From positions 16,370-80,369 of the forward strand of contig JACTTZ010000006.1 of NCBI GenBank assembly GCA_015660915.1: DNA of 64,000 nucleotides. Reading direction: 5' to 3'. A model generated the notes under the pieces. It did not search any database. It saw only the letters and a program-made list of their open reading frames with translations, and was not told where the DNA came from. How positions within the stretch are numbered: the first letter of the stretch is position 1; every line of letters begins with the position of its first letter. Below, piece by piece: positions 10,282 through 55,902 of the stretch. This stretch comes from Methanomicrobia archaeon. GTDB lineage: Archaea; Halobacteriota; Bog-38; Methanoflorentales; Methanoflorentaceae. Both the position numbers and the translations under genes were made by a program.

Positions 10282-10536
10282 ACTCCGACATGGAAGAAGA
10301 TGTATCACTACTTTGAGTATCGAAATGCTGAGTTCTTGGAGCACTACCACAAACGGAGCAATGCCGAAACGACGTTCCATATGACAAAGAGCAAGTTTGG
10401 GCACGCGGCGAGAAGCAAGACCGAAGTGGTGCAGGTTAATGAGGTGTTGCTAAAAGTGTTTTATCACAACATCTGTGTGGTGATTCAACAGATGTGGGGG
10501 TTGGGGATAGAGCCGAATTTCTTCGGCTCGAGCTAA
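10282..10536 (+). pseudogene. C-terminal remnant of the SWIM-DDE transposase
   Basis: PTWKKMYHYF...YHKRSNAETTFHM..SKFG is nearly identical to the transposases at 44-45 kb and 52-53 kb; in-frame stop at 10279. Confidence 0.88.
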
Positions 10537-10614
10537 GGTAGGTTCTTGAACAATAACTTTTTGTATTTTCATTTGGCATTAATGCAGCGCTAAAACAATA
10601 GATAAAGCAGACAA

Positions 10615-11655
10615 ATGGAAGAATCAGAACCAATGGTAGAATTAGCCGGAGAATCTAGCGAATTAGACGCGTCGGAATGGTGGAGCTCTCATTTCGACTT
10701 CAACCTTTACAACCTGGAGAGAAAAGGTGATAAGTACTATCTTAAGTCGCCTCGATTCGTAAAAAAAAGGGATAGCAAAGCAATACGGGAAGAGGATAAG
10801 AGCAAAGCAATATGGGAAGAAGCTAAAAACCTGCTTCCGGTAATTAAAGCCATTTCAAAAATACGAGGTTTGGGCGGCCAATCTATGAAGATTGGTAGCG
10901 AAGTTCGTAAAGAATGGGGAAGACCAGCTGACGTTATCGTGGAGGGGGGACGGCCACACTTATTCATTTTTGGAGAATTGCTGTCTGGCAGAGGGAGATT
11001 TTGGAAGGAAGATGGCATAATCTATTTTAGAGGGCATGAAACAGGGCGGGTTGTAAACGAACACGACCAGATTATGCAGGAATTTATGCGGGATTTCGGA
11101 AACAACATACCGGATTTCGCTCTTAACATACCGCAACTTGAATTTTTAGTGCAGCAGGCACGGCAGCTCGATAGCGACCTCAATCTACTTGAAAAATGCG
11201 TCGATGACCCATATGTATACGAGACGTTTTCCTATTTTGCAGGGGAGCCAAATTGGCTCAACCTCTGGAAGACTTATGAAATGATTAAATATTGTGTCGA
11301 TAGAAACTTGGGTCATACATTTACGCGCGAAAAATGCGCGATAATAGACAATGGTTGGGCAGAAGAGCTAGAATTAGTGAATTTTGCGAACAGCGCAAAT
11401 TACTATTTAGCGCAAGGAGACCCTCGTCACTCTCGCGCATATTATCTTAATAAAGAAAGGGAGACAGAAGAAAAGTTAAATCCTGCTCAGAAACAAAGTC
11501 ATAGAGAGCGAAAGGCGAGGCGCGAGGCCGCTAACCCACCAATGAGTCTGCCTATGGCAGAAGAGCTCATCATACGAATCTTTCGACGATGGTGTAGATG
11601 GAGAGTCACCAATATGTGTTTGGAGAGCTACCAGCACGTGATAGTCACCGTTTAA
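10615..11655 (+). CDS. Hypothetical cargo protein (possibly HEPN-like C-terminus)
   Basis: 346-aa AT-richer ORF; WLNLWKTYE..GW..F.NSAN..GDPRH..PMSL pattern. Confidence 0.6.
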   Translation: MEESEPMVELAGESSELDASEWWSSHFDFNLYNLERKGDKYYLKSPRFVKKRDSKAIREEDKSKAIWEEAKNLLPVIKAISKIRGLGGQSMKIGSEVRKEWGRPADVIVEGGRPHLFIFGELLSGRGRFWKEDGIIYFRGHETGRVVNEHDQIMQEFMRDFGNNIPDFALNIPQLEFLVQQARQLDSDLNLLEKCVDDPYVYETFSYFAGEPNWLNLWKTYEMIKYCVDRNLGHTFTREKCAIIDNGWAEELELVNFANSANYYLAQGDPRHSRAYYLNKERETEEKLNPAQKQSHRERKARREAANPPMSLPMAEELIIRIFRRWCRWRVTNMCLESYQHVIVTV

Positions 11656-11662
11656 CGCGAGT

Positions 11663-11932
11663 CTACCTCATTTCAACTTTAAGGTGCGCTCTCCGCACCA
11701 TCGCAGTCGTTTCCTCATCATCTAAAAGGTTTGGGAAATCCGCGGAATAATATTCCATATCAAAGCAGAAAAGCAACCCCATAAGCACCTCACGATCGGT
11801 GAGCGATACCGTAAGGTTGTAGTTAGTGAAACTGTATTCTGAAATTCCTTTTGCCTCTTCCCATTCTTTTCCCATCCACTCGTCTAGTTCAATACAAAGT
11901 TTCTTAGCTTCGTTATCTTTGTTTCGTGTCAA
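11663..11932 (-). CDS. Hypothetical cargo protein
   Basis: 89-aa ORF, TTG start with AGGTGA RBS. Confidence 0.55.
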   Translation of the reverse strand: MTRNKDNEAKKLCIELDEWMGKEWEEAKGISEYSFTNYNLTVSLTDREVLMGLLFCFDMEYYSADFPNLLDDEETTAMVRRAHLKVEMR

Positions 11933-12022
11933 AAAATCACCTCAAAAAAGTGTTGCAACAGTCGGGACTTTGTTGCAGAAGTAGGCGAGAGACTGGGGTT
12001 TTGCAACAAAGCCCCTGATTGA

Positions 12023-12108
12023 GGCTTTGTTGAAGAAGTGCTCGTGAAGCGCTACTTTTTCAACAGACGACTGACTTTTTCAACACGTGGCAGTTATTCA
12101 ACAAAGCC
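12023..12108 (-). mobile_element. 86-bp non-autonomous mini-element (MITE) of the same family
   Basis: TIRs GGCTTTGTTGAAGAAGT / GGCTTTGTTGAATAACT, two internal TGTTGAAAAAGT repeats, flanked by CCTGATTGA at 12014-12022 and 12109-12117. Confidence 0.92.
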
Positions 12109-12120
12109 CCTGATTGACCA

Positions 12121-12132
12121 ACTTTTATATAG
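12121..12132 (+). promoter_or_regulatory. TATA box of the heat-shock operon
   Basis: ACTTTTATATAG upstream of the HSR operator and the ATG at 12196. Confidence 0.75.
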
Positions 12133-12140
12133 CATCAAAA

Positions 12141-12155
12141 CTAACTATAAGTTAG
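12141..12155. promoter_or_regulatory. HSR1-type operator CTAAC-N5-GTTAG
   Basis: CTAAC TATAA GTTAG matches the Archaeoglobus HSR1 site and precedes the regulator-cdc48-hsp20 operon. Confidence 0.82.
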
Positions 12156-12195
12156 TGTTACGATCTATCAGACCGTGACACGCTACGAAACAGCA

Positions 12196-12849
12196 ATGGA
12201 CGAAGCAGCACTCCTTGACATTCTCGGCAATGAAAATCGCCGCAATATCTTGAAACTCCTTTCACTGCGGCCTTTTTACGTGACTGAGATTTCAGAACGA
12301 CTGCACGTGGCCCCGAAGGCGGTGATCAGTCATCTCGGCATGCTCGAGCGGGCAGGGATTATCCAGTTCTTTGTCGATGAGCGACGCCGGAAGTACTTCC
12401 ACATCGCGGATAACTTGCTGCTCGAGATTCAAATCTCGCCGTTTAGCTACGGAGTCGAATCCGCTAATGATGCACGCGACGAACCAACCGTTGCCGAGTT
12501 TCCAACTCCGATTGGCGAAATACAAATCAAAACGAACAGTTTGGCCGACGTTGCGGAGACACTCGACAGCCTAAGGAGGGCTAATCGCGAGCTGATGGGG
12601 GCGCAGCGAAGGGTCCAAGAGTTGATCAATGAGGTCATGGAGCGCGGCGCAAGAAAGATTGACGCAATATCGCGCGACTTTGTTGAATATGACATCCTTT
12701 CGTTGCTGCTTACAGGGCCCAAGACGGCCAATCAGCTGTCTGCGGGGCTCGCGATACCTGGCCAAATACTCGTAGAGCGGCTGCGTAACCTTGAAAAACG
12801 AGGGAAAATCAAAAGAATGGACGCCAGAACGTATTGGCTGGCGAGGTAA
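12196..12849 (+). CDS. ArsR-family heat-shock regulator (HSR1-like)
   Basis: LLDILGNENRRNILKLL..RPFYVTEIS..PKAVISHL; synteny with cdc48 and hsp20. Confidence 0.85.
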   Translation: MDEAALLDILGNENRRNILKLLSLRPFYVTEISERLHVAPKAVISHLGMLERAGIIQFFVDERRRKYFHIADNLLLEIQISPFSYGVESANDARDEPTVAEFPTPIGEIQIKTNSLADVAETLDSLRRANRELMGAQRRVQELINEVMERGARKIDAISRDFVEYDILSLLLTGPKTANQLSAGLAIPGQILVERLRNLEKRGKIKRMDARTYWLAR

Positions 12850-42942: not shown

Positions 42943-43395
42943 CACCGGCTGGTGTGCATATTTTTTGCGTCGTTTCGCAGTGACAAATCCCGCATAAGCG
43001 GCTGACAAGATTCGACTTTTTTCCGCTGAGGCTTTTTTTTGATGATTTGCGATTGTGGTTGTTATCCACTGACGCCAGAGAATCGGTCTGTCTAGGTCTT
43101 ACGCAGTACTAACGTCGCGCGGCCCCTAAAGAAGCCCTTGAAAAGATGCTTGGGACGGGTGTATAGCGCCGCAATAACTCTTAGGCTTTGTTGCATAACC
43201 CCCGTCTGTTGCAAAAGTAAAGGTTGTGTTGCAAAAGTCTACGCGGGTTGGGGTTCTGTTAAACCAAACGTTGTTAATCCTAGGTTGTTGAGAAAAGGTT
43301 GGCGGAAAATTGTTTTTCTGTAACAATTGCACGTTACATAGGATTATGTTATCGCAATATGGGATAACTTGCATTGTATTTGTAGAGGGAGTAAT

Positions 43396-44184
43396 ATGAC
43401 GCTAAGTATCATTATTAGAAGCCCAGATGGCATTGTACTCGCCACTGAAAGCAGAAGTTTGACGGAAGTGACTTTGCCAAACGGTTCGAAATGCCCAATT
43501 AGCTTTGATGAAACCAAGAAACTCCTAACGTTTGACGAACCCCACAACTTTGTAGCTGCTGTCACGACCGGGCTTGGAGGAATAGGGAATAGGTCTGTTT
43601 ATAATTTCGTACCAGATTTTGAAGCAACAATCGCTTCAGAAGGTCGTATGCCGGTTGACGAGTTCTCCGAAAAAATGTCCAACTTCTTCATGAAGGAATG
43701 GGAGAGGCGGCCACCAGAAATGAAAGACTGGAAAGGCCCGTCGATATCTTTTCTCGCGGCGGGTTTCAACGAAGGGGATGCATATCCTCACACTTACAAA
43801 ATAGATATTCCTTCTGAACCGAAACCCGTTGAATTGCCCCAGATAGACATAACTTGGGGAGGTGAAGGAGAGCTAGTCAACAGACTGATAAAAGGTTATG
43901 ACCCCAACCTTCCAAAACGATTGTCAGACGCTTGGTCGTTAACTGAAGAACAAGTGAAAGCTATGCCAGAAATCGCGCAACCGCTTTCTCTACAGTTCCC
44001 GTTGCCAGTGATGGGATTGCAAGGCTACATTGACTTAGCGGTATTGCTTCTCCGCACCACGATAGAAACTCAGCGACTAGCACTCTACGTAAGGGGGTGT
44101 GGCGGCCCTATCGACATGGCTACAATAACGCGAGGAGACGGGCTTTGCTTCGTTCGACTTAATGACGAAGACGAGATTTGCTAA
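43396..44184 (+). CDS. Proteasome-beta-like Ntn hydrolase (cargo)
   Basis: M-T-LSIIIRSPDGIVLATESR start, K at 'ETKKL', FLAAGF, GGPIDMATIT. Confidence 0.7.
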   Translation: MTLSIIIRSPDGIVLATESRSLTEVTLPNGSKCPISFDETKKLLTFDEPHNFVAAVTTGLGGIGNRSVYNFVPDFEATIASEGRMPVDEFSEKMSNFFMKEWERRPPEMKDWKGPSISFLAAGFNEGDAYPHTYKIDIPSEPKPVELPQIDITWGGEGELVNRLIKGYDPNLPKRLSDAWSLTEEQVKAMPEIAQPLSLQFPLPVMGLQGYIDLAVLLLRTTIETQRLALYVRGCGGPIDMATITRGDGLCFVRLNDEDEIC

Positions 44185-44369
44185 CTGCGGAGACTAAAAA
44201 ATTGTCCTGAGGTACCGTGTTTCGGCCCTTCAGTTTGCGAGCGAACGCGCTTTATATATTCCTCAATTGCTTTGTAGTCGCTTTCCGTAATTTCTTCGCC
44301 GTCTAAGAAGTATTTGTCAACGCTCTTTTTCTCAAGCACGTGGGTGCTATTTTCTATCTTACTTTCCAT
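44181..44369 (-). CDS. Small hypothetical protein divergent from the transposase
   Basis: 62-aa ORF. Confidence 0.45.
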   Translation of the reverse strand: MESKIENSTHVLEKKSVDKYFLDGEEITESDYKAIEEYIKRVRSQTEGPKHGTSGQFFSLRS

Positions 44370-44383
44370 TCTAAATTAACCGA

Positions 44384-45678
44384 TTGCTAGGTAAACGTTT
44401 AATCGGACGTACGACGATTATCAGTTCTTTGTCGCGTATTTCTAGCTGCCAATCTAATGAATCATCACTCGTCAGGTTCAAAGCTCGGAAGGAAAGGGGT
44501 TTGAGCATAGCAAAGACCTGCAAAATCACCAAGAGCGGCAACAGTTGGATAGTTCCCTCTCAGTCAAACGGAACCACATACGACGTAGAATTCTCAGAAT
44601 TTGACCATAAACAGTCTTGCACTTGCCCTGATTACCAATACCGGAAAATCAAGTGCAAGCATATCTTCGCGGTTGTGTTAATCGTCACTGAAGAGATTGA
44701 CAGCTACGGAACGGTCACGCAGACTGTTACAAAGCGGGTAAGCTACGCGCAGAATTGGCAAGCCTACGACCAAGCGCAAATACACCAGAAAGAGCTTTTT
44801 ATGGGCTTGCTCCGAGACTTAACAAGTTCTATTCCGCAGCCGGAGTACACGTTTGGAAGGCCGAAGTTGCCATTAGCCGATATGGTGTTTGCGTCTGCTT
44901 TGAAGGTCTTCTCAACCTTTTCGCTAAGGCGGTTTACCACTGACATGCAAATAGCAAAGGAGAGAGGTTTGATTGAGAGAGTGCCCTACTACACGACTGT
45001 TGCGCGGTATATGGAGAATTCAGAGCTAACACCCATCATCAAAGACCTTATCGCCATGACAAGCCTCGCTTTAGCCTCAGTTGAAAACGACTTCACTATT
45101 GACAGCTCAGGATTCGGAACTTCGAGGTTTGTCAAGTGGTTCGACCACAAATACGGCAAAGACAAAGACGTTAGGACGTGGGTAAAAGCGCACGTAGCTT
45201 GCGGGGTTAAGACAAACATCGTTACTGCTGTCGAGTTGACAATGGGTAACGAGCATGATTCAAAGTTTCTGCCGGAACTGGTGACTCAGACAGCTCAGAA
45301 CTTTACGTCAAAGAAGTGTCCGGAGATAAGGCGTATTCTTCGAGAGCCAATTTAGAATTGATAAACGAGCTGGGCGCTGTGCCTTACATCCCATTTAAAA
45401 AGGGAACCACAGGCCGAGCGAAGAACGCGCCAACGTGGAAGAAGATGTATCACTACTTCGAATTCAGAAACGAGGAATTCCTAGAGCACTACCACAAGCG
45501 GAGCAATGCAGAGACGACGTTTCATATGATAAAGAGCAAGTCTGGGGATTCAGTACGCAGTAAGACGGAAGTGGCTCAGGCTAATGAAGTCTTACTGAAA
45601 GTGCTGTGCCACAACATCTGCGTGGTAATACAGGAGATGTTTGAGTTGGGCATTGAACCCAACTTTTTTTCTTCTTAA
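44384..45678 (+). pseudogene. SWIM-DDE transposase with a 1-nt frameshift near 45305
   Basis: CTCPDY..CKHI SWIM, IDSSGF, GDKAY, YHKRSNAE. Reads CTTTACGTC where the intact copy has CTTTAACGTC. Start uncertain. Confidence 0.88.
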
Positions 45679-45756
45679 GGGTGGGTGTTTGGTTCGGCAG
45701 CCAGAGCTTTTTGTAAGAGCACTGTTAATAACCACTCTTCTGGAAGGCGATAACCT

Positions 45757-46038
45757 ATGAATCAGAGCGAGCTGTTTAAAGAAGTTCTTGAGAATATTAG
45801 GAAAGAGATTAAATCCCAAAATGATGAGATAATAAAAATCGCAGAGCGTGTTGGAGATAAAGAGAGAAAGAAGATAGGAGACCGTATTAGCATCGACAGC
45901 GACATCGCTGACGGCTTCAAGAACATCGTTTCCAACATCGACCGGCTAGAACAGATGATAAGCGCGGTAAACCAGAGAGTTTTTGAGGTAAACCAGAGAG
46001 TTACTGAATTGGCGAAGCATACTTACCCCTATGTATGA
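45757..46038 (+). CDS. Small coiled-coil cargo protein
   Basis: 93-aa heptad-rich ORF. Confidence 0.6.
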   Translation: MNQSELFKEVLENIRKEIKSQNDEIIKIAERVGDKERKKIGDRISIDSDIADGFKNIVSNIDRLEQMISAVNQRVFEVNQRVTELAKHTYPYV

Positions 46039-46102
46039 GTGTGTTACACGTTTGTGGTTGTGACGGTAAGAACCTAACCAGAAATTTGGGGGGGGTGAGG
46101 AA

Positions 46103-46264
46103 TTGGTCAATGAAGATGAATTTAAGGTATTAGAAAACCGTGTGGAAGAGCTTGAAAGACTTTTTGAAGAACTCCATCAGCAAATGACACCCGATAAGAT
46201 AGGAAAATTGGTTGAGAAATACGTGAAAGAATATGCTAAGCTTCCAGAAGGAGCTAGGAGTTAA
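46103..46264 (+). CDS. 53-aa coiled-coil cargo protein (below the ORF-track cutoff)
   Basis: GGTGAGG RBS, TTG start; MVNEDEFKVLENRVEELERLFEELHQQ...GARS. Confidence 0.55.
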   Translation: MVNEDEFKVLENRVEELERLFEELHQQMTPDKIGKLVEKYVKEYAKLPEGARS

Positions 46265-46402
46265 CGAGTCGTATACGCTTATTATTTTCTGCTTTACTCC
46301 TTAACTTAACGAATCTTTGTTACCAACCGATTCACCTCAGCCACTTTTCACCGATTCAGCAACCGCAGATTCAGCACTAGTTTCGAGTGGGTTCACTGGA
46401 GA

Positions 46403-46490
46403 TTCAACAAAGCCGCAACAAAAGATGTTTGAGTTGGGGATTGAGCCGAGTTTCTTTGGTCTTACGCCCGCTTTGAATGCCGACTTGTAA
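46403..46490 (+). pseudogene. Orphan TIR plus the last 21 codons of another transposase copy
   Basis: TTCAACAAAGCC at 46403-46414, then MFELGIEPSFFGLTPALNADL*. Confidence 0.75.
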
Positions 46491-46554
46491 GCAAGACTAC
46501 CGAAAGATATTTTTCTTTTCACATATTATATTATAAAACAGGGACGTGGCGACG

Positions 46555-46845
46555 ATGGCAGGTATAATCAATAGTCGTGGCAATTCTTTTACTGGTGGTG
46601 ACGATTATTTTCAAGGTGGCAATGCATCTGTAAATGGCAACTATTTTTCGGCAAGAGACGATGTTATTCTTGTGGATTCCTCCGCCTTAACAGCCTGCGC
46701 CTTACCTACCTTTATAAGAAGCGGAGAAACTCTACCTCCAGAAATACTCCCGGATGTAAGTAAAGAGAAGCCACTACTCTTCGAAATAGATATCATACGT
46801 GTTGTTTCGGCTGAGCCGTTAATAGACCAAATAAAACGACGTTGA
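46555..46845 (+). CDS. Hypothetical cargo protein
   Basis: Low-complexity ~96-aa ORF immediately upstream of the next gene. Confidence 0.5.
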   Translation: MAGIINSRGNSFTGGDDYFQGGNASVNGNYFSARDDVILVDSSALTACALPTFIRSGETLPPEILPDVSKEKPLLFEIDIIRVVSAEPLIDQIKRR

Positions 46846-46865
46846 AGGCGTTTAGATGGGTAATA

Positions 46866-47630
46866 ATGGTTAATATTGACCCTTGCGACGCCTGCGACGC
46901 AAAAGACAAGTGTTCAGCAGTTTTTGATGAAATTGACAATACTAAGGAAATTGAACAGGGCGACATACTCCTTTTGCCTTATATTTATCCTATAGGACGT
47001 ATCGAATTTGCAGAAGATAAGCCCGAGGGTAAGCTCAAAGCATGGATACAAAAATGGAATGCTGTGGTGCTAAGTCACTCTAGCACTTTGGCACAAAACA
47101 AGTTAGACCTCGTGCTTCTCTGTCCTATATGGGGGGTAAGCAGTTTCTATGCAAATCGCGTCGAGCGGCTTAAACTAGATGATGAATATGCCAAAAAAAT
47201 TTTTAAAGACGGTAAATTTGATAGAGAAAACTTCAAAAATAAAACAGATAGTCTACTTAGTGAAGCGACTATAGGTACTCAATATGGTTACAGTATTCTA
47301 AAAAAGACACCTCCGTGCGACAAATATCAAAAAGGCTTAGCTCCGATGCTTGTTGATTTTACTAATGCTTATTCACTTCCTGTAGATTTAATAAAGCGTT
47401 ACGTAGAAAAATCTCAAGACAAGCCTAAGAGGCTTAGGTTGACATGCGAGTATAGAATTGATTTGGTAAGCAGGTTCAACTATTTCTTGCAAAGGACTGT
47501 GGCGCCAAGAGATGAACTTAGTTTTCCAGATATGAAGCAAAATGACATTGATTATCCACGAATAGATACGATGCTCGATAAAGTGGCTGAGGCTTCAGAA
47601 AAAAAAGAAAAGAAAACGGGTGAAAGCTGA
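46866..47630 (+). CDS. Hypothetical cargo protein, possible PemK/MazF-like fold
   Basis: QGDI...AVVLSHS..L...VLLCPI...LVDF...RL.L...YR..L..RF..F..R pattern. Confidence 0.55.
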   Translation: MVNIDPCDACDAKDKCSAVFDEIDNTKEIEQGDILLLPYIYPIGRIEFAEDKPEGKLKAWIQKWNAVVLSHSSTLAQNKLDLVLLCPIWGVSSFYANRVERLKLDDEYAKKIFKDGKFDRENFKNKTDSLLSEATIGTQYGYSILKKTPPCDKYQKGLAPMLVDFTNAYSLPVDLIKRYVEKSQDKPKRLRLTCEYRIDLVSRFNYFLQRTVAPRDELSFPDMKQNDIDYPRIDTMLDKVAEASEKKEKKTGES

Positions 47631-47652
47631 CCGTCTAATCAAAACAATGACG

Positions 47653-48174
47653 TCAAACAGGTGGATATCTTTTGACGACGCTTTGATGATTGACTAGATA
47701 AATAGGCTCTCCCTGTACGTCATTATGGTCAACTTTTGCAATTGCTTGAGCAACGGTTTGCACAGATAACTTGATGCCTTCTACTTCGTATTCATTCCAC
47801 GGTTCTTTCACAGGTGTAAACTCCAAGGCGTTTTCTTTAAGTAACAATTCAATCTGAGACGGTTCTGACGGAAGTCGAGCATTGGACGGGTTCCCTCTTA
47901 ATCCAGAAGGTGAAAATGAAGCCATTATAGGTATAGTAGTTGCAGTATAATTGCCGTCTATCTTAAAGAATTTTAGCGGCTTAACAAGAAGCTTTATTAC
48001 TGTTTCATCATTGAGACAGTAAACGCTGCACTCTTCCTTTATCCGTTCAAAATCTAAATAACCATATTCTTTAATTTTGTCTTTAACGGTATCAATACTA
48101 GTCATCGGGGTCACCCGTTCAGCGATGTATAAATGTCTATCATTTGAGAAAGTTGTTTTGGTTGCACTACTCAT
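47653..48174 (-). CDS. Hypothetical cargo protein with an internally duplicated domain
   Basis: LDFERIKEECSVYCL and LEFTPVKEPWNEYEV repeats; alternative start at 48105. Confidence 0.6.
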   Translation of the reverse strand: MSSATKTTFSNDRHLYIAERVTPMTSIDTVKDKIKEYGYLDFERIKEECSVYCLNDETVIKLLVKPLKFFKIDGNYTATTIPIMASFSPSGLRGNPSNARLPSEPSQIELLLKENALEFTPVKEPWNEYEVEGIKLSVQTVAQAIAKVDHNDVQGEPIYLVNHQSVVKRYPPV

Positions 48175-48380
48175 GTTTTTTCACCTGTAAAGGCTCCACT
48201 CTTGGGGAAAAAGGCGCGTGTTGCAAAACACCCTTCTGTTGCAAAAGTCGGGGTTGTGTTGCATAAGTGCCTGAGAAATGCGGCGAAATGTGAGTTTTGC
48301 AACAAAGCCTAACTCTTAGGCTTTGTAAAATAAGTGCCGTTTGTTAAAAAAGTCAAGTTTCTGTTAAAAAAGTCAGTGTT

Positions 48381-48695
48381 CTATTTTCGCACCGCTGCGT
48401 TGAGGCCCGACTCGACTTGGTCAATGGTCGTATTGCACAATAACACCACTTTCCTAGTGCTTGTATGCCCTGAAATGAGTTGCACCTCGTCCACAGGCTT
48501 GTCGAACAAAATCGCAAGGTATCTCATGAGCTGTTCGTTTGCTTTTCCTTTTTGTGCTGGCTCAGTGAGTTTGATACGGACGGCATGCCGCCATGCGTTG
48601 AATCCTTCGATGCCTGAATTTCGTGAACTTGGCGCTACTTCTATGCGAATCGTCACGCCTTCTGGTACGGCCCTCAGTGCGCCTTCAAGCTGCAT
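48381..48695 (-). CDS. DUF167 (YggU/UPF0235) protein
   Basis: IEVAPSS, PAQKGKAN, ISGHTSTRK. Confidence 0.85.
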   Translation of the reverse strand: MQLEGALRAVPEGVTIRIEVAPSSRNSGIEGFNAWRHAVRIKLTEPAQKGKANEQLMRYLAILFDKPVDEVQLISGHTSTRKVVLLCNTTIDQVESGLNAAVRK

Positions 48696-49077
48696 AAACG
48701 GGATGAAAAGATAGAAATTTTGGTCTTTGCCCCGACGCACTAACTCCGAAGGTTCATTCTCTTGAAATCTTCGCTGTCCCCTTCAGTTACCCTCGTGCCG
48801 GGGCATGATGCGACCTTTGCCATTACGGGGTTGTTTTGCTATCATCGAAGGGCGTTCGCCAAGAACTCAAACAAAGACCTATACGTAACGGGATACTTTG
48901 GCTCCTATATGCACTGATAATCATCCAAACACGCACGTGACACGTTATACCAGTCCTCTTAAGAGCGTTATTTTGTATATTGGGGATGCTATATATCGTT
49001 TTTGTTTGAGTCACACAGCTAAGGTCATTTCAATGCACTTTTATATTTAATATGCTTAGCCTCAATGTCTGATATTT

Positions 49078-49524
49078 ATGGCTTACTGGCTCTATGTTAC
49101 GAATTTTGACAACTGGAACGTCACGAAAGAGACAAATATTTTAGGAGTTTCCGAAAAGTTCGGAAAGATCCTTTCTCGTGTAAAGAAAGGTGATAAGTGC
49201 TTAATTTATCTAAAGACCGAAACAGTGAGCAGAGAGCGTTATCCTCCACAGGTGGCTGGGGCATATCAGATTGTGTCAGAAGTATTCAAAGACAGCAAAG
49301 TGATGTTCCACGCACCCTACGCTACTTCCAATGAGACATACGGTCTAAGAGTAAGGCTAGAACCTTTGCGGCTATTCGAGCTTCCCATTGAGTTTAAGCC
49401 GCTCGTTTTGAGATTGGCATTTATTACAAACAAGGCAAAATGGTTTTTGAATCTTAGAGGACGAGCAATGGTCGCGATTCCGAAAAGTGATTACGACTTG
49501 ATCCTTTCTGCTGCTCATCATTAA
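49078..49524 (+). CDS. EVE-domain protein
   Basis: MAYWL..NW..VKKGDKCLIY, LAFITNK.KW, M..I.K.DY.LI. Confidence 0.85.
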   Translation: MAYWLYVTNFDNWNVTKETNILGVSEKFGKILSRVKKGDKCLIYLKTETVSRERYPPQVAGAYQIVSEVFKDSKVMFHAPYATSNETYGLRVRLEPLRLFELPIEFKPLVLRLAFITNKAKWFLNLRGRAMVAIPKSDYDLILSAAHH

Positions 49525-49605
49525 ACGGATTATTCAAGGTCAGTTTCGGCTAGGATTCGTAAAATCCATATAGTAAGAACTCATATTACCAGATGGACTG
49601 ATTTT

Positions 49606-52086
49606 ATGAATGATTATTCATCTGAAGATGATGTCAAATATAAGTTTGCGGTTTCCTTTCTCGAAAAAAAAGGCTATTCAACAGATTTTATGGATTTTAA
49701 CAAATCTATAAAAGTTCAAGAAGGCCGCAAAGAAAAGACGATTTTTGCTGATATTGTCGTTTACATCGATAAGAAGAAACAATCTCCTATCATTCTTGTT
49801 GAGACAAAATCTCCAAATGAAATTTTGAATAAAGCCGCAGTTGAGCAGGCAATATCATATGCGCGGTTATTGCCAAGAATTGCACCCTTCGCCCTTTTAA
49901 CAAATTCCAGCCAGACGCGCATTTACCAAGTTGTTGACAAAAACAGAATTGAAGAACTACCAACCAAAGCAGATTCGCGTAAGGATATTGTAACGTCAGT
50001 TATCAGCAAAGCCACTCAGGACTCGCTTAGGCAAGATGCAATTCACGAGCTGTTTGTAATTGATGATGTAAAGACCTTCAGAAATGTGCTAAAACAATGC
50101 CACAACGAAATTCGGAATAATGAAGGCTATGATCCAATTCAAGCTTTTGATGAAATGAGTAAAATTCTCTTCTGCAAGATGTATGAAGAGAAATATGATA
50201 ATGACAACCGATTTACCTTGCGGGTTTTTGACAGGACAATCAATACCTACCGCTTCAATATCATCCAGAAGATATACGAAGAAACAATTAAGCACCCTAA
50301 ATATGCTTCGCTTTTCCCGGAAAATGATAAAATAAAACTCAAAGATCGAACCATAAGGAGGATAGTCAAATTATTTGAACACTATGACCTATCACTTACA
50401 GCGTTTGACATAAAAGGAGAAGCATTTGAATACTTTTTGAGCGACACATTCACAGGTGGATTGGGGGAATATTTCACACCGAGAAACGTTGTTGAATTTA
50501 TTGTAGATGCTATAGACCCTAAAATAGCGGAAAAGATTGTAGACCCTTTTTGCGGAACAGGTGGATTTCTGATTTACGCATTTGATGTCGTGCACCAGAA
50601 AATCCGACTTCAAGATTTTTCTGAAGATGAAAGACAGAAGTGGCAAGAAGCACTGTCAAGTAGATCTTTATTTGGAACCGATTGGAAAGAAAGGACAATT
50701 CAAGCCTGTAAGATGAATATGATTGTTCACGGAGATGGACATACGGGGATATTCTTGCACGATGGTCTAACGAATATCAAAGAGACGGTTCAAGAGAATT
50801 CCTTTGACGTATGTTTAACAAATCCCCCGTTTGGAGCCGTTGAGAATAACAAAGAGGTCTTGGATAATTATCACTTTGGCAAAGGAAGGGAGTCACAGGA
50901 AAGGGAGATCTTGGCCCTCGAAAGAGCGATTCAATTAATAAAACCAGAGCGTAAGTGTGGAATGGTAGTGATTGAAGGAATTTTGAACAATGACAAATAC
51001 AAACCCGTTAGAGACTATGTAAAACAAAAGGTATGGATAGATGGAATTGTAAGCCTACCATCAGACACGTTTTCTGGTTATGGTTCAAAAGCGGCTACCT
51101 CTTTGTTTTTCTTCACTAAAAAAACAGAGCCTGATGAAGGAGAGCAAAAAAGCATCTTCATGGCAATTTGTAACAATTCAGGCTATTCAGCATCAGGACT
51201 AGAGATTCCCGGAAACCAATTGCCAGACATCTTGGTTCAATATAAAAAATTCTTAAAGAATCCGGCAGACGCAACGATTTCTGGTAGTAATGTCGCAGTT
51301 GTCTCAACGGATGATTTGCGAGACCGTTTTGACCCGCAACACTATATTTCGCAAGTGGAGAGCAAAATATCTACCAGCGCCGAGGTCATAAAGACTCAAG
51401 AGCAACTGAAACAGCATTTCAAGAATGTCCAAGCGGATAGTGACTCACTTGTCGACTCCCAATTAACCAAAATAGCAGATATTGGTGAATGGGATATTGT
51501 TAAAATAACAAAGCTTGTCGATGAATATAAAGCTCCTGAAAAATTAGAGCCTAATACTGATTACGCTCTGGTGGGAGTTAGAGGACACGCGCTAGGCGCT
51601 TTTATTAAAGATACTAAAAAAGGAAGTGAAATCAAAGCCAAAAAACTATACAAAACTAAGCCGGGATGTTTGATCTATAACAGGCTGTTTGCGCATCGTG
51701 GGTCGTTCGCAATTCTGGACGACTCTTTTGAGAACTGTTATGTTTCTGGAGAATTCCCACAATTTATAGCTAAGGAGCAAACAAAATACGAACCCGCTAA
51801 CCTAATTAAATATTTGTTTTATTATTGTATAAATCCGGTTTTTGTGGATAATGTCAGACGATATTCTTCCGGCTCGACCAAAGGAAGCCGGTTTAGGTTA
51901 AAAGAAGATTCGTTTTTGGATTTCAAAATTAAAATACCAGCAAGCTCACAGAATTTGAATGCGTTAGTAAATAAACTAGATGACCTTTTTTCGACAACTA
52001 AGAAAATTAAAGAAACACAAATGATGCTTGACTCGGAGATGGAACAACTAAAAGAAAGAATCGTTATGACTCTCCCCCAATCTTAA
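49606..52086 (+). CDS. Single-chain restriction-modification enzyme (HsdR-N-like nuclease + N6-adenine MTase + TRD)
   Basis: ADIVV..LVETK nuclease motif, GEYFTPR, DPFCGTGGFL, TNPPFG, HsdS-like C-terminus. Confidence 0.88.
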   Translation: MNDYSSEDDVKYKFAVSFLEKKGYSTDFMDFNKSIKVQEGRKEKTIFADIVVYIDKKKQSPIILVETKSPNEILNKAAVEQAISYARLLPRIAPFALLTNSSQTRIYQVVDKNRIEELPTKADSRKDIVTSVISKATQDSLRQDAIHELFVIDDVKTFRNVLKQCHNEIRNNEGYDPIQAFDEMSKILFCKMYEEKYDNDNRFTLRVFDRTINTYRFNIIQKIYEETIKHPKYASLFPENDKIKLKDRTIRRIVKLFEHYDLSLTAFDIKGEAFEYFLSDTFTGGLGEYFTPRNVVEFIVDAIDPKIAEKIVDPFCGTGGFLIYAFDVVHQKIRLQDFSEDERQKWQEALSSRSLFGTDWKERTIQACKMNMIVHGDGHTGIFLHDGLTNIKETVQENSFDVCLTNPPFGAVENNKEVLDNYHFGKGRESQEREILALERAIQLIKPERKCGMVVIEGILNNDKYKPVRDYVKQKVWIDGIVSLPSDTFSGYGSKAATSLFFFTKKTEPDEGEQKSIFMAICNNSGYSASGLEIPGNQLPDILVQYKKFLKNPADATISGSNVAVVSTDDLRDRFDPQHYISQVESKISTSAEVIKTQEQLKQHFKNVQADSDSLVDSQLTKIADIGEWDIVKITKLVDEYKAPEKLEPNTDYALVGVRGHALGAFIKDTKKGSEIKAKKLYKTKPGCLIYNRLFAHRGSFAILDDSFENCYVSGEFPQFIAKEQTKYEPANLIKYLFYYCINPVFVDNVRRYSSGSTKGSRFRLKEDSFLDFKIKIPASSQNLNALVNKLDDLFSTTKKIKETQMMLDSEMEQLKERIVMTLPQS

Positions 52087-52210
52087 TTTTTTTGATTGTT
52101 ACTTCGATATAATCTCCTTTCTGTAATCCCTCGTCTTCCCACGCTTTTTTATCGATTACAATACGTCTTTGCTTGTCATTCTTAACTTGCACAATAAATG
52201 GTTTTGACAT
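52064..52210 (-). CDS. 48-aa AbrB/MazE-type DNA-binding protein (not in ORF track)
   Basis: MSKPFIVQVKNDKQRRIVIDKKAWEDEGLQKGDYIEVTIKK; GGTGA RBS; divergent from the transposase. Confidence 0.7.
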   Translation of the reverse strand: MSKPFIVQVKNDKQRRIVIDKKAWEDEGLQKGDYIEVTIKKIKIGGES

Positions 52211-52270
52211 ATTCACCATATATGTCTTCTTCACCACAAACTATTTATTCTTTCCGACCTATTATTATTG

Positions 52271-52284
52271 TGGTGAATTCACCA
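52271..52284. promoter_or_regulatory. Palindromic operator candidate TGGTGAATTCACCA
   Basis: Perfect 14-bp palindrome just upstream of the transposase ATG; further TTCACCA half-sites at 52212 and 52230. Confidence 0.55.
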
Positions 52285-52298
52285 TAGACGTGACAATC

Positions 52299-53537
52299 AT
52301 GCAAGCTCAAGAATTGTTGGAAGCTCGGAAGGAACGAGGCACGGAAATAGCACATAACAACCACATCAAAAAGAGCGAGAAGGGGTGGCTAGTCCATTCT
52401 CAAACGAGCGATGCATCTTACATCGTTCAGTTCTCAGAGTTTGACCACACACATTCATGCGATTGTCCTGATTACCAATACCGGAAAATCAAGTGCAAAC
52501 ACATCTTCGCGGTTGAACTCATTGTTACCGAAGAGATCGACGAGCTAGGTAAGGTCACACAGACTGTCACAAAGAAGGTCAGCTACACACAGGATTGGCA
52601 AGCCTACGACCACGCTCAGATACACCAAAAGGAACTGTTCATGCAACTGCTTCAAGACGTATGCCGCCGTGTGCCACAGCCTGAATACACATTCGGAAGA
52701 CCGAAGCTGCCGCTATCTGATATGGTGTTCCTATCAGCCCTCAAGGTGTTTAGCACCTTCTCATTAAGACGGTTCTTGACAGATGCAGAGATAGCAAAAG
52801 AACGCGGCTACATCGAGAACGTGCCGACGTATGTTTCTGTTGCTCACTATATGGAGAATCCAGACGTAACGCCTATTATCAAGGAGCTTATCACGGTAAC
52901 GAGTCTTCCGCTAACGTCTGTCGAAACAGATTTCACGATAGACAGCTCAGGATTTGGAACCTCAAGGTTTGTTAAGTGGTTCGACCACAAATACGGTAAG
53001 GAAGTTGATACAAGGGCGTGGGTTAAAGCTCACCTCATATGCGGAGTGAAGACGAACATTGTGACGGCGGTTGAACTGACGATGACAAACGAACACGATA
53101 CGAAATTCCTACCTGAACTGGTGTTTCAGACGGCTCAGAACTTTAACGTCAAGGAAGTTTCGGGGGACAAGGCGTATTCGTCAAGGAAGAACTTACAGCT
53201 CATTGGCGACTTGGGAGCTACGCCCTATATTCCTTTTAGAAAGGGAACGACAGGACTCTCTAAGGGCTCAACGATGTGGAAGAAGATGTACCACTACTTC
53301 GAATTCAAAAACGAAGAATTTTTAGAGCATTACCACAAGCGGAGCAACGCAGAAACCACTTTTCATATGATAAAGAGTAAGTTCGGGGATTCGGTGCGGA
53401 GTAAGACAGAGGTTGCTCAGGTCAATGAAGTGCTGTTGAAAGTGTTGTGTCACAACATCTGCGTTGTGATTCAAGAGATGTTCGAGCTCGGACTCGATAT
53501 TAGTTCGTTGTTTCCTATAGGAAATAAGCTAACTTAG
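52299..53537 (+). CDS. Transposase: N-terminal SWIM zinc finger + IS4/IS5-type DDE domain
   Basis: CDCPDY..CKHI; D (IDSSG), D (GDKAY), E in the YREK-type motif Y-HK-R-SNA-E-TTFHMI-K. Confidence 0.92.
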   Translation: MQAQELLEARKERGTEIAHNNHIKKSEKGWLVHSQTSDASYIVQFSEFDHTHSCDCPDYQYRKIKCKHIFAVELIVTEEIDELGKVTQTVTKKVSYTQDWQAYDHAQIHQKELFMQLLQDVCRRVPQPEYTFGRPKLPLSDMVFLSALKVFSTFSLRRFLTDAEIAKERGYIENVPTYVSVAHYMENPDVTPIIKELITVTSLPLTSVETDFTIDSSGFGTSRFVKWFDHKYGKEVDTRAWVKAHLICGVKTNIVTAVELTMTNEHDTKFLPELVFQTAQNFNVKEVSGDKAYSSRKNLQLIGDLGATPYIPFRKGTTGLSKGSTMWKKMYHYFEFKNEEFLEHYHKRSNAETTFHMIKSKFGDSVRSKTEVAQVNEVLLKVLCHNICVVIQEMFELGLDISSLFPIGNKLT

Positions 53538-53662
53538 GTTAACGTCAACCGCGGTTAACGTTATGCTCTTCGAGAGCCGTTCTTAGCTTCATTTGAGTGT
53601 TTCCATTGGAAACTGTTAAGTGCACTTAACGTTAAGCGCGCTTGACCTTAACCGCGGTTAAG
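53528..53662. repeat. Five 16-bp palindromic units (2+3 in tandem)
   Basis: GCTAACTTAGGTTAAC, GTCAACCGCGGTTAAC; GTTAAGTGCACTTAAC, GTTAAGCGCGCTTGAC, CTTAACCGCGGTTAAG. Confidence 0.8.
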
Positions 53663-53786
53663 ATGTCAATGAATAGCATGGTTAGTTTTGGGTTCTCTTT
53701 TTTTGAAAATCTCTTGTTAAAAAAGTAAGACGTTTGTTAAAAAAGTGGGTTCAATTTCTGACTTTATTTACAAAGCCTAACTCTTA

Positions 53787-53801
53787 GAAAATATTATATA
53801 T
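53787..53801 (+). promoter_or_regulatory. BRE/TATA box of the downstream HTH gene
   Basis: GAAAAT-ATTATATA about 27 bp before the ATG at 53827. Confidence 0.7.
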
Positions 53802-53826
53802 TATTAACGGCGTTAATTTGGTTGAT

Positions 53827-54108
53827 ATGAATGCACATGGCGTTGCTGCTGCAATTACCGTAAACGATAGGCCAAACAACCTCGAAGACGTGGCCAAAAA
53901 ACTACGCGTATATCCACCCAGCGTAAAACTAGTGTTCAAGGCGCTTGAACAAAACGGCACAATGACCCTAACCGATATCAAACAGGAAACGTATTTGCCC
54001 TATCGAACAGTGAGATACGCGATCAAAAGGCTAAAAGAAGGCGGTTTGGTAACTCGCATCTTCTACATCCAGGATGCAAGACAAAGTCTCTACCGTTTAG
54101 CGGAATAA
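53827..54108 (+). CDS. Small winged-helix transcriptional regulator
   Basis: PPSVKLVFKAL..ETYLPYRTVRYAIKRL..DARQSLY. Confidence 0.85.
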   Translation: MNAHGVAAAITVNDRPNNLEDVAKKLRVYPPSVKLVFKALEQNGTMTLTDIKQETYLPYRTVRYAIKRLKEGGLVTRIFYIQDARQSLYRLAE

Positions 54109-55727: not shown

Positions 55728-55902
55728 GCTCGAAAACTCCTTCCAGTCTCGACAGGGCTTCTTTTGCATGAAGAACCATGTCAAGCGCCTGAGCTCGTTG
55801 TTTCTCGCTCAACTTGTGCAGGGGTGCTGTCTCTCTGAGCAGCACCCTCAGATCGGTGAGCGCGAACAACGCTTCAAAAAGGGTATCCACTTGTTCACTC
55901 AT
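55711..55902 (-). CDS. Small helical protein upstream of pscS (SepCysE N-domain-like, 'SepCysSn')
   Basis: LFEALF.L..LR..LR.T.P.H.L pattern; overlaps the pscS start. Confidence 0.65.
   Translation of the reverse strand: MSEQVDTLFEALFALTDLRVLLRETAPLHKLSEKQRAQALDMVLHAKEALSRLEGVFEHEDRK

What the first reader, a model, noticed from the sequence alone, without database searches (positions are those of the whole stretch)
43175..53786. Tandem stack of two 5-kb cargo transposons separated by one shared TSD
Seen: TAACTCTTA - element B (43184-48309) - TAACTCTTA - element C (48319-53777) - TAACTCTTA. Each element has its own TIR pair, a diverged transposase copy and different cargo. Established: GGCTTTGTTG ends with 9-bp TSDs are typical of IS903-group elements, which are about 1 kb and carry no cargo. 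Inference: repeated insertion at one fixed site builds an integron-like cassette array using a DDE enzyme. The predicted empty site is CGCCGCAA-TAACTCTTA-GAAAATATTATATA.
Basis: partly seen in the sequence, partly recalled or inferred. Interest (0 to 1): 0.88.

Follow-up and report, generated by a model that had tools for sequence, protein, structure and literature searches.

The report
Promoter-docking cargo transposons stack up
Two gene-carrying jumping elements lie head to tail because their enzyme inserts into the same nine bases directly in front of an archaeal gene's promoter, a targeting habit I found no description of for this transposon family.

Summary
TAACTCTTA occurs three times (43175, 48310, 53778) and brackets element B (43184-48309) and element C (48319-53777). 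Contigs from four other public runs bridge all three junctions without a difference.

Both elements are IS903-like members of the IS5 family: GGCTTTGT ends, 9-bp duplication, and a Tn5-like DDE transposase with an extra N-terminal SWIM zinc finger. Both carry passenger genes. C has an intact transposase; B's is frameshifted.

The site is not one fixed att site. A second stack lies in the same window (12014-12117). In 95 related loci, all 12 real end-to-end junctions have a spacer of exactly 9 bp.

The common factor is the flank. One side of nearly every insertion reads RAAAnnTTTATATA, the methanogen promoter box, starting 7 bases after the duplication. This held in 8 of 17 first sites (p about 2e-13) and in 6 of 10 hold-out sites from other genera (p about 5e-8).

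Best reading: the transposase docks on the 9 bp just upstream of a promoter. The promoter survives, so the same 9 bp is hit again and the newest element lies nearest the promoter. Cargo is rich in defence genes.

The "integron-like" reading is partly supported. No empty TAACTCTTA allele was found; other sites do have clean empty alleles.

The parts
43124..43174 (+). Distal flank: 3' remnant of a gene (..KMLGTGV*). Synteny with the paralogous radical SAM locus ends at about 43123.
43175..43183 (.). 9-bp target duplication, copy 1 (TAACTCTTA)
43184..48309 (+). Element B, 5126 bp. It is distal to the promoter and probably the older of the two.
43184..43238 (+). B left end: terminal repeat GGCTTTGTTGCATAACCC plus two TGTTGCAAAAGT subterminal repeats (43207, 43227), 20 bp apart
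43256..43310 (+). Module of three roughly 14-bp GTTGTTAA repeats ('X') inside B. The same module lies in host DNA next to hot-spot 9-mers elsewhere. Unexplained.
43369..44184 (+). B cargo ORF, 271 aa, no family hit. A homologue is carried by the element on contig C4.
44384..45678 (+). B transposase gene (SWIM + DDE_Tnp_1), split into 44384-45355 and 45316-45678 by a 1-nt deletion
45757..48174 (.). B cargo ORFs 45757-46038, 46546-46845, 46842-47630 (+) and 47653-48174 (-). No Pfam, NCBIfam or PADLOC family above threshold.
48219..48309 (+). B right end: three subterminal repeats (48219, 48237, 48257) in the same direction as at the left end, then terminal repeat 48292-48309
48310..48318 (.). 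9-bp duplication, copy 2, shared by B and C
48319..53777 (+). Element C, 5459 bp. It is next to the promoter, has an intact transposase, and is probably the newer of the two.
48381..48740 (-). C cargo: DUF167/YggU-like protein. The DNA is 80.6% identical to chromosomal contig C9:181540-182161.
49078..49524 (+). C cargo: EVE-domain protein. An EVE ORF recurs in 7 of 37 distinct elements.
49606..52086 (+). C cargo: 826-aa fusion of an HSDR_N nuclease-like N-terminus, an N6 DNA methylase and a specificity domain (restriction-modification type)
52299..53537 (+). C transposase, about 412 aa (the open frame starts at 52173). SWIM CxC..CxH, D215/D290/E352 and Y-2-R-3-E-6-K are invariant in 46 relatives.
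53530..53660 (.). Inverted repeat inside C with TTAACG/CGTTAA-like words that resemble the operator of the flanking HTH gene
   Evidence: I1, I4
53715..53777 (+). C right end: two TGTTAAAAAAGT repeats (53715, 53735) and terminal repeat 53761-53777
53778..53786 (.). 9-bp duplication, copy 3
53787..53817 (+). Promoter-like flank GAAAATATTATATATTA, followed by the palindrome TTAACGGCGTTAA (53804-53816)
53818..54108 (+). 96-aa winged-helix-type regulator gene that the promoter would drive (no family hit in NCBIfam)
10285..12013 (+). Second stack, older unit: an element truncated on its left. It keeps a transposase C-terminal fragment (10300-10536), two cargo ORFs, and a right end with repeats at 11951 and 11971 and a terminus at 12013.
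12014..12022 (.). Second stack: shared 9-mer CCTGATTGA, copy 1
12023..12108 (-). Second stack: 86-bp mini-element (both termini plus two ACTTTTTCAACA repeats, no ORF)
12109..12117 (.). Second stack: CCTGATTGA, copy 2
12118..12849 (+). Promoter-like flank CCAACTTTTATATAG, a palindrome, and a 224-aa HTH (ArsR-like by eye) gene at 12175-12849

Best explanation
B and C belong to a large, mostly archaeal branch of the IS5 family with IS903-type ends and a 9-bp duplication. Their roughly 410-aa transposase joins an N-terminal SWIM zinc finger to a Tn5-like DDE core. The elements carry 1-9 kb of passenger genes, many of them restriction-modification, toxin-antitoxin or other defence types.

The transposase does not choose a fixed sequence. 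It inserts into the 9 bp that lie immediately upstream of an archaeal core promoter, read as 9-mer, then RAAA, two bases, then TTTATATA. The cut lies outside the promoter, so the promoter survives and remains a target at the same nucleotide. A second element therefore lands in the promoter-side copy of the duplication and copies it again. The result is older element - 9-mer - newer element - 9-mer - promoter.

In this window C (intact, promoter-side) arrived after B (frameshifted, distal). Old units decay to truncated copies or to 84-86-bp end-only units.

Shown: the anatomy, the family-wide 9-bp junctions, the one-sided motif at a fixed offset, and empty versus filled alleles. Inferred: cut-and-paste chemistry (by homology), the order of arrival, and how the promoter is recognised (direct reading by the transposase, or through bound TBP/TFB).
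For: Family identity.
- Pfam gives DDE_Tnp_1 plus SWIM. NCBIfam gives IS5 family at 142.6 bits against a 140 cut-off. The best fold match is Tn5 transposase 1muh_A (E 2.7e-4, TM 0.42).
- An IS903-type plasmid copy shares the terminus GGCTTTGTTGAATAA and the 9-bp duplication.

Stacking is general.
- There is a second stack in this window.
- A search for right end, 0-30 bp, left end gave 15 hits in 95 related loci (859,618 bp). Twelve are element junctions and all 12 have a spacer of exactly 9; 0.003 are expected by chance. The other 3 are one coding palindrome with spacer 0.
- 8 of 46 element or array rows are two-unit arrays, and 13 of 46 have a further family end beyond the outer 9-mer.

Target motif.
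- Logo of 14 independent sites: +2 to +4 AAA (10, 11 and 14 of 14); +7 to +14 TTTATATA (10, 11, 13, 9, 12, 13, 9 and 12 of 14).
- This matches the methanogen TATA box TTTATATA/TWTATATA (PMC2699501, passages).
- 8 of 17 distinct sites score at least 7 of 8 and 12 of 17 at least 6 of 8. The nulls are 0.0075 and 0.057, giving p = 2e-13 and 6e-12. After dropping the three sites that prompted the idea, p = 4e-8.
- Hold-out: 16 regions from 15 genomes of other genera gave 10 new sites. 6 of 10 score at least 7 and 8 of 10 at least 6, against same-locus non-coding nulls of 0.025 and 0.143, giving p = 4.6e-8 and 5.9e-6. 3 of 10 are again stacked across 9 bp.
- A forward ORF starts 23-116 nt after the 9-mer at 8 of 14 sites, and 221 nt after it at the contig C4 site.

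Empty alleles.
- Contig C4 element: 8 of 8 alignable relatives carry a single 9-mer.
- L077 site: empty in this genome.
- ArsR-type promoter: 5 of 12 species filled, by different subtypes at the same nucleotide, and 7 empty.
- HTH promoters with the TTAACGSCGTTAA operator: 5 of 12 filled.

Order of arrival.
- Orthologous loci L095 (B-type alone), L090 (B-type 86-bp unit distal, a different element promoter-side) and this window (B distal, C promoter-side) imply two independent additions on the promoter side.
- In 3 of 3 three-copy arrays with one variant 9-mer, the variant is the distal copy (L078, L090, L104).
Against: - The promoter motif is not sufficient. A matrix built from 10 outside sites ranks this genome's four occupied sites only 52nd, 176th, 285th and 1008th among 4.09 million positions, so many equal or better sites are empty. 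Yet a few promoters (the two HTH types and the ArsR type) are hit again and again. Something more must matter: the resident element, the upstream repeat modules, or selection.
- 5 of 17 first sites and 2 of 10 hold-out sites lack a good box. These include the one clear bacterial (Planctomycetota) copy.
- In L089 the promoter-side 9-mer is the variant copy. In L080 an array has the repeat module on both sides and no promoter.
- That the motif is an active promoter rests on consensus and downstream ORFs only; no transcript data were seen.
- No empty allele of this very site was found.
Confidence: 0.7

Rival explanations
1. Homing to a relative's end. The incoming transposase recognises the conserved terminus (GGCTTTGT) of a resident family member and cuts the 9 bp next to it, so stacks grow wherever a first element happens to sit. 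The promoter only matters for the first insertion, or not at all.
For: - Stacks are far more common than independent hits on hundreds of promoter-like sites would give.
- The terminal 8 bases are shared by all subtypes, while the subterminal repeats differ.
- Array L080 has no promoter on either side.
- Targeting of an element's own inverted repeats is known for IS30 (recalled, not checked here).
Against: - At least 20 single or first insertions at unrelated 9-mers show the promoter box with no resident end, so the promoter rule exists on its own and already predicts stacking.
- Additions at the orthologous locus were on the promoter side in 2 of 2 cases, and the variant 9-mers are distal in 3 of 3 arrays. 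Pure end-homing predicts either side.
Confidence: 0.17
2. One reading: a single fixed att-like site (radical SAM gene to HTH gene) at which a DDE enzyme builds an integron-like cassette array.
For: - The same 9 bp was used at least twice here.
- The orthologous site in three related contigs is also occupied, by other elements.
Against: - Family members use at least 27 different 9-mers with no shared sequence.
- A second stack in the same window has a different 9-mer and different flanking genes.
- There is no integrase or attC, and the units are autonomous transposons.
Confidence: 0.05
3. No targeting at all. Insertions are random or merely AT-biased, and selection keeps only the harmless ones upstream of promoters. 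Stacks would arise by recombination between alleles that carry different elements.
For: - Insertions in intergenic DNA are expected to survive better.
- Interiors of elements at orthologous sites differ more than their flanks: the transposase gene is 81% identical and the flanks 90%, so recombination among elements does occur.
Against: - Selection cannot set the offset to the nucleotide. The box starts at +7 to +9 in nearly all cases, whereas the null for non-coding positions is 0.7-2.5%.
- Every junction has exactly 9 bp.
- Nine or ten shared bases are too few for allelic recombination to build tandems.
Confidence: 0.04
4. Assembly artefact: B and C are alternative alleles from two strains that were joined in the bin.
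For: The genome is a metagenome bin of 27 contigs.
Against: - The shared sequence at the junction is only 10 bases.
- Contigs of 4 of 4 other runs span each junction with 0 differences and even depth.
- The same architecture recurs in 12 other contigs and 3 hold-out genomes.
Confidence: 0.01

Closest known systems
IS903 (IS5 family, IS903 group)
   Same: - The terminal repeat is nearly identical: GGCTTTGTTGAATAA is shared with several subtypes here.
- The duplication is 9 bp.
- The DDE_Tnp_1 core is homologous (24.5% identity).
- IS903's preferred flank TRAAW (PMC2577343, Table 1 passage) resembles the RAAA seen here at +1 to +4.
   Different: - IS903 is 1057 bp with only a transposase. These elements are 2.3-11.6 kb with cargo.
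- These elements have an extra SWIM N-terminus and 2-3 subterminal 12-bp repeats that point the same way at both ends.
- The target motif is one-sided and extends into a TATA box, in place of a palindrome.
- They form arrays and are found mostly in archaea.
Tn7 and Tn7-like elements at attTn7
   Same: Insertion occurs at a fixed distance from a host landmark that survives. Repeated insertions therefore form tandem arrays that re-duplicate the same short target, with the newest element nearest the landmark (recalled; tandem Tn7-like islands appear in the PMC11014353 search listing only).
   Different: Tn7 uses TnsA/B/C plus a separate selector (TnsD, TnsE or CRISPR) and makes a 5-bp duplication at one gene end. 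Here a single DDE_Tnp_1 protein makes a 9-bp duplication, and the landmark is a class of sequences (core promoters).
Casposons in tandem at one target
   Same: Archaeal transposons with terminal repeats are found in tandem and separated by copies of the target duplication (PMC6563490, passages).
   Different: Casposons use a Cas1 integrase and insert at the 3' end of ef-2 or tRNA genes.
Yeast Ty3/Ty1 and other promoter-tethered elements
   Same: These elements choose the region just upstream of a TBP-dependent promoter as a safe harbour (recalled).
   Different: They are retroelements tethered to Pol III factors by protein contacts. For the present family a protein tether is only a possibility.
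Integrons
   Same: Arrays of cargo units are added at one end next to a fixed point.
   Different: Integrons use a tyrosine recombinase, attI/attC sites, cassettes without their own enzyme, and a common promoter reading into the cassettes. None of these is present here.

Membership tests
IS5 family, IS903 group | DDE_Tnp_1 transposase with D, D, E and Y-2-R-3-E-6-K | tested here: met
   - Pfam PF01609 at E 8e-23.
- NCBIfam NF033579 at 142.6 bits against a 140 cut-off.
- D215, D290, E352, Y345, R348 and K359 are invariant in 46 sequences.
- The fold matches Tn5 transposase.
IS5 family, IS903 group | Terminal inverted repeats starting GGCTTTGTTG | tested here: met
   for these elements; the plasmid IS903-type copy has GGCTTTGTTGAATAAATC. 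The name IS903 for that copy is recalled; the record says only 'IS5 family transposase'.
IS5 family, IS903 group | 9-bp target duplication | tested here: met
   (59 element calls validated by their target duplications), empty alleles with a single 9-mer, and the plasmid copy.
IS5 family, IS903 group | Compact element of about 1 kb that encodes only the transposase | tested here: not met
   Elements are 2326-11562 bp. 144 cargo ORFs were found in 37 distinct elements; only one element (2326 bp) had none of 80 aa or more.
IS5 family, IS903 group | Palindromic target preference WTTYA-N9-TRAAW | tested here: not met
   Only the promoter-side flank is conserved (RAAAnnTTTATATA); the other flank shows no pattern. 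Motif taken from the PMC2577343 Table 1 passage.
Tn7-like transposons | TnsA/TnsB/TnsC core plus a target selector; 5-bp duplication | tested here: not met
   Ten ORFs of B and C were scanned. The only transposition protein is DDE_Tnp_1 plus SWIM. The duplication is 9 bp.
Integron | IntI tyrosine recombinase, attI and attC sites | tested here: not met
   No integrase family was found in the ORFs of B or C, nor in the two flanking genes scanned (the radical SAM gene and the 96-aa HTH gene). Units are bounded by inverted repeats and duplications.
Casposon | Cas1 integrase and family B polymerase | tested here: not met
   Neither family appears.
Non-autonomous mini-element (MITE) | Both termini and a target duplication, with no coding capacity | tested here: met
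   Window 12023-12108 (86 bp); contig C18:156875-156958 (84 bp); seven further distinct units of 85-100 bp in related loci.
Transporter IS (an IS-type element with passenger genes inside one pair of ends; definition recalled) | An IS-family transposase plus unrelated genes between a single pair of inverted repeats, flanked by one duplication | tested here: met

The most novel reading that the evidence does not exclude
The SWIM-bearing transposase may read the archaeal basal transcription apparatus itself, meaning TBP/TFB bound at BRE/TATA. That would make it a prokaryotic counterpart of Ty3-type tethering. By docking again and again at a few promoters it would assemble defence islands unit by unit. 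This would be the first DDE transposon known to use a core promoter complex as its landing mark.
Probability: 0.3. Interest if true: 0.92.

Novelty: new variant of a known kind. Interest (0 to 1): 0.8.

Why it matters
- It gives a simple, testable rule for where a very large transposon family lands: at least 6562 related proteins were found, and the landing spot is the nine bases in front of an archaeal core promoter.
- It explains an odd structure, stacks that share one duplication, without invoking a site-specific recombinase.
- It shows how defence genes (methylases, a restriction enzyme, AbiE, Thoeris TIR, PIN, OLD-like ATPases) can gather into small islands in archaea.
- It offers a possible natural tool for promoter-proximal insertion in methanogens.
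- It gives a handle on whether TBP/TFB-bound DNA can serve as a transposition target.

Tried and rejected
- Tyrosine-recombinase or Tn7-like reading. The direct subterminal repeats first suggested arm sites or TnsB sites. Rejected: the only mobility protein is DDE_Tnp_1 plus SWIM.
- Empty allele of this site. Hits in G014 and G005 looked like empty sites but are orthologues of a paralogous radical SAM locus on contig C18. G017b and G002b are empty, but their upstream DNA has diverged. G005 and G004 carry the nearest HTH genes (73% identity) and are empty, with unrelated 9-mers. No joint that skips B, C or both appeared in the contigs of 4 runs; contigs can hide rare variants.
- In-frame TAG stops reported in three transposase copies suggested recoding. 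Rejected: they lie upstream of the true start, and the copies are open over residues 40-442.
- A stable-RNA gene behind the contig C4 promoter: no Rfam family and no tRNA.
- PADLOC on B's cargo and on the truncated element's cargo: nothing above noise.
- Complex prediction with TFB core, TBP and transposase residues 1-100: no verdict (score 0.02). It counts neither for nor against binding.
- A 9-mer consensus: only a weak CC at positions 1-2.
- Literature. (listings), together with passages of PMC13343696 and PMC6563490, gave no description of promoter-targeted IS5/IS903-like cargo transposons or of their shared-duplication stacks. Subscription journals and ISfinder were not searchable, and supplements were closed, so tables of archaeal IS elements could not be checked.

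Full report
**1. The observation**

TAACTCTTA occurs three times in the window, at 43175, 48310 and 53778. Chance expectation is 0.32, and 0 of 100 shuffles reached three. The three copies bracket two units.

- B spans 43184-48309. Its ends are GGCTTTGTTGCATAACCC and, in reverse complement, GGCTTTGTTGCAAAACTC.
- C spans 48319-53777. Its ends are GGCTTTGTAAAATAAGT and GGCTTTGTAAATAAAGT.
- Each end also carries two or three 12-bp subterminal repeats, 20 bp apart: TGTTGCAAAAGT in B and TGTTAAAAAAGT in C. They point the same way at both ends, so the two ends of an element are not equivalent.

The junction is real. B's right end plus the 9-mer and the 9-mer plus C's left end share only 10 bases. 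Contigs of four other public runs (4 of 4 laid) cross all three junctions with no difference and even depth.

**2. What the units are**

The transposase carries Pfam DDE_Tnp_1 and SWIM. It reaches the NCBIfam IS5-family model just above its cut-off, 142.6 against 140 bits.

In an alignment of 46 relatives the following are invariant:
- the SWIM CxC..CxH residues;
- D215, D290 and E352;
- the Y-2-R-3-E-6-K signature.

An AlphaFold model (mean pLDDT 79) is most like Tn5 transposase (1muh_A, E 2.7e-4).

A 1057-bp IS5-family element on an E. coli plasmid has ends GGCTTTGTTGAATAAATC and a 9-bp duplication. Its transposase is 24.5% identical to residues 89-386. By size and ends this is IS903; that name is recalled, since the record says only 'IS5 family transposase'.

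State of the copies:
- C's gene is intact; the real protein is about 412 aa, encoded at 52299-53537.
- The copy on contig C4 is intact.
- B's copy has a 1-nt deletion.

The family is very large: at least 6562 proteins at E of 1e-10 or better. The few source names given are 'IS5 family transposase' or 'transposase', from Halobacteriota, Nanoarchaeota and Aenigmarchaeota.

**3. Cargo**

C carries three passenger genes:
- a DUF167 gene;
- an EVE-domain gene;
- an 826-aa fusion of a nuclease-like N-terminus, an N6 methylase and a specificity domain.

B's five cargo ORFs match no family.

Across 37 distinct elements I found 144 cargo ORFs in 97 clusters. I scanned 73 cluster representatives of the 97; the 24 left out were short singletons. 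They matched 34 Pfam families, including:
- DNA methylases;
- MvaI/BcnI endonuclease;
- AbiEii/AbiEi;
- ThsB TIR;
- PIN;
- AAA_15, AAA_21 and DUF2813;
- Peptidase_M78 with an HTH.

Element sizes run from 2.3 to 11.6 kb. There are also end-only units of 84-100 bp.

**4. Stacking is a family habit, not a property of this locus**

The same window holds a second stack. A left-truncated element ends at 12013. It is followed by CCTGATTGA, an 86-bp unit (12023-12108), and CCTGATTGA again.

I then searched 95 related loci (859,618 bp) for a right end, 0-30 bases, then a left end. This gave 15 hits. Three are one coding palindrome with spacer 0. The other 12 are element junctions, and all 12 have exactly 9 bases between the ends; 0.003 would be expected by chance.

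The stacked partners are usually different subtypes and can lie in either orientation. Of 46 element or array rows, 8 are two-unit arrays, and 13 have yet another family end beyond the outer 9-mer.

**5. The site is not fixed; the flank is**

The 9-mers differ from site to site. On one side, however, nearly every insertion is followed by RAAAnnTTTATATA.

The logo of 14 independent sites gives:
- +1 G in 8 of 14;
- +2 to +4 AAA in 10, 11 and 14 of 14;
- +7 to +14 TTTATATA in 10, 11, 13, 9, 12, 13, 9 and 12 of 14.

The other flank and the 9-mer itself are nearly free; there is only a weak CC at positions 1-2.

TTTATATA/TWTATATA is the TATA box of methanogens (PMC2699501, passages). That the A-run lies where the BRE sits is recalled, not checked. 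A forward ORF begins 23-116 nt after the 9-mer at 8 of 14 sites, and 221 nt after it at the contig C4 site. At 3 of the 5 sites without one, the visible flank is under 170 nt.

Statistics for the first set:
- Of 17 distinct sites, 8 score at least 7 of 8 against the box at offsets +6 to +10, and 12 score at least 6.
- Random non-coding positions of this genome reach those scores with probability 0.0075 and 0.057.
- This gives p = 2e-13 and 6e-12.
- Without the three sites that suggested the idea, p = 4e-8.

**6. Hold-out test**

I searched 400 other genomes of the phylum and fetched 16 regions from 15 genomes of other genera.
- Elements with perfect 9-bp duplications were found in 11 regions and none in 5.
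- One (L214) repeated a site already used and was dropped.
- Of the 10 new sites, 6 score at least 7 and 8 score at least 6. L208 scores 5 and L206 scores 3.
- Nulls taken from non-coding positions of the same loci are 0.025 and 0.143, giving p = 4.6e-8 and 5.9e-6.
- Three of the ten abut another family end across exactly 9 bp. In each, the promoter box is on the other side.

**7. Empty and filled alleles**

| Site | Result |
|---|---|
| Contig C4 element (3540 bp, 9-mer GACGTGAGT) | 8 of 8 alignable relatives have the two flanks joined by a single 9-mer; a ninth locus did not align |
| L077 site | Empty in this genome, with the same 9-mer |
| ArsR-type promoter (this window's second stack) | 5 of 12 species filled, by different subtypes at the same nucleotide; 7 empty |
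| HTH promoters with the TTAACGSCGTTAA operator | 5 of 12 loci filled, always 17 nt from the operator |

For the TAACTCTTA site itself no empty allele was found. The three orthologous contigs are all occupied.

**8. Order of arrival**

The orthologous loci (flanks 87-94% identical) hold the following:
- L095 and L098: a B-type element alone;
- L090: a B-type 86-bp unit distal, plus a different 4.7-kb element on the promoter side;
- this window: B distal, plus C on the promoter side.

This implies two independent additions, both on the promoter side. In the three three-copy arrays that contain one variant 9-mer (L078, L090, L104), the variant is the distal copy each time. L089 is a counter-example among two-copy cases. 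Here the promoter-side unit C is intact and the distal unit B is broken. In the second stack the distal unit is truncated.

**9. Mechanism**

The best reading is that the transposase makes 9-bp staggered cuts in the bases that end just before the RAAA of a core promoter. The promoter is left whole, so it remains a target at the same nucleotide. That alone produces stacks with a shared duplication.

IS903 is reported to prefer WTTYA-N9-TRAAW (PMC2577343, Table 1 passage). The RAAA seen here looks like one retained half-site, extended by recognition of the TATA box. The added SWIM N-terminus is the obvious candidate for that extra recognition; this is inference.

Whether recognition is direct or goes through bound TBP/TFB is open. 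The single complex prediction gave no verdict.

**10. What does not fit**

- The box is not sufficient. The four occupied sites of this genome rank only 52nd to 1008th among all positions scored with an outside matrix, yet a few promoters are hit repeatedly. Help from resident ends, or from the repeat modules beside the hot spots, remains possible (rival 1).
- A module of three roughly 14-bp GTTGTTAA repeats lies inside B-type elements (43256-43310). It also lies in host DNA directly distal to hot-spot 9-mers, including empty ones.
- GGTGAAA-type repeats take the same place at the ArsR-type promoter.
- I have no explanation for these repeat modules.

**11. Comparison and novelty**

The elements belong to the IS5/IS903 kind by enzyme, ends and duplication. 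They fail its size criterion and its palindromic-target criterion.

Functionally they behave like Tn7 at attTn7, or like tandem casposons (PMC6563490, passages). The choice of landmark recalls Ty3 (recalled).

My searches (passages) found no description of this targeting or of these stacks. ISfinder, subscription journals and supplements were out of reach.

I rate it a new variant of a known kind. The finding is of high interest because the rule is simple, general and directly testable.

Noticed in passing
window 10285-12117: A second shared-duplication stack. A left-truncated element ends at 12013. It is followed by CCTGATTGA, an 86-bp end-only unit and CCTGATTGA, directly upstream of the promoter of an HTH gene (12175-12849).
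   Followed up: yes
window 43256-43310; G000 C18:156800-156863; L080, L092, L104, L058: A module of three roughly 14-bp GTTGTTAA repeats occurs inside B-type elements next to the left end. It also occurs in host DNA immediately distal to hot-spot 9-mers, including empty sites. GGTGAAA-type repeats occupy the same place at the ArsR-type promoter in relatives. Their role is unknown; they could be a regulator site, a landing aid or an old end.
   Followed up: partly
L090:7159-7244 versus L095:1917-6341: An 86-bp unit sits between the same non-identical 9-mer pair (TAATCCTTG / TAATCGTTG) as a full 4.4-kb element at the orthologous site, but in the opposite orientation. It was therefore remodelled in place and not freshly inserted. 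The end-only units have a full left end plus a minimal right terminus.
   Followed up: partly
window 41952-43123 and 54555-57228: The surroundings are a patchwork of paralogues of genes on contig C18: the radical SAM gene at 84%, another gene at 77%, and a 465-bp stretch at 95%. Only the last 50 bp of a gene remain left of the stack. The stack therefore lies in a rearranged, variable region.
   Followed up: partly
window 48381-49002: C's DUF167 cargo gene and the DNA beyond it are 80.6% identical to a chromosomal stretch (C9:181540-182161). This suggests the cargo was picked up from a related genome.
   Followed up: no
window 53530-53660: Near its right end, element C carries inverted repeats built of TTAACG/CGTTAA words. 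They resemble the operator-like palindrome TTAACGGCGTTAA (53804-53816) of the flanking HTH gene.
   Followed up: no
L057:4258-4300 (G002): A 21-bp tandem duplication that comprises the last 13 bases of an element end plus most of the 9-mer, next to the HTH promoter.
   Followed up: no
L062, L063, L110: Contigs whose record titles name bacterial bins (Acidobacteriota lineages) hold transposases 73-80% identical to C. The elements sit at archaeal-type TATA flanks. Either the contigs are mis-binned or the elements were recently transferred.
   Followed up: no
L068, L135: The distant copies without a TATA flank have other targets: a Planctomycetota record, and a 44%-identity metagenome contig with 9-mer GGTCTGACC and a 100-bp mini-unit nearby. 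The targeting rule may track the host's promoter type.
   Followed up: no
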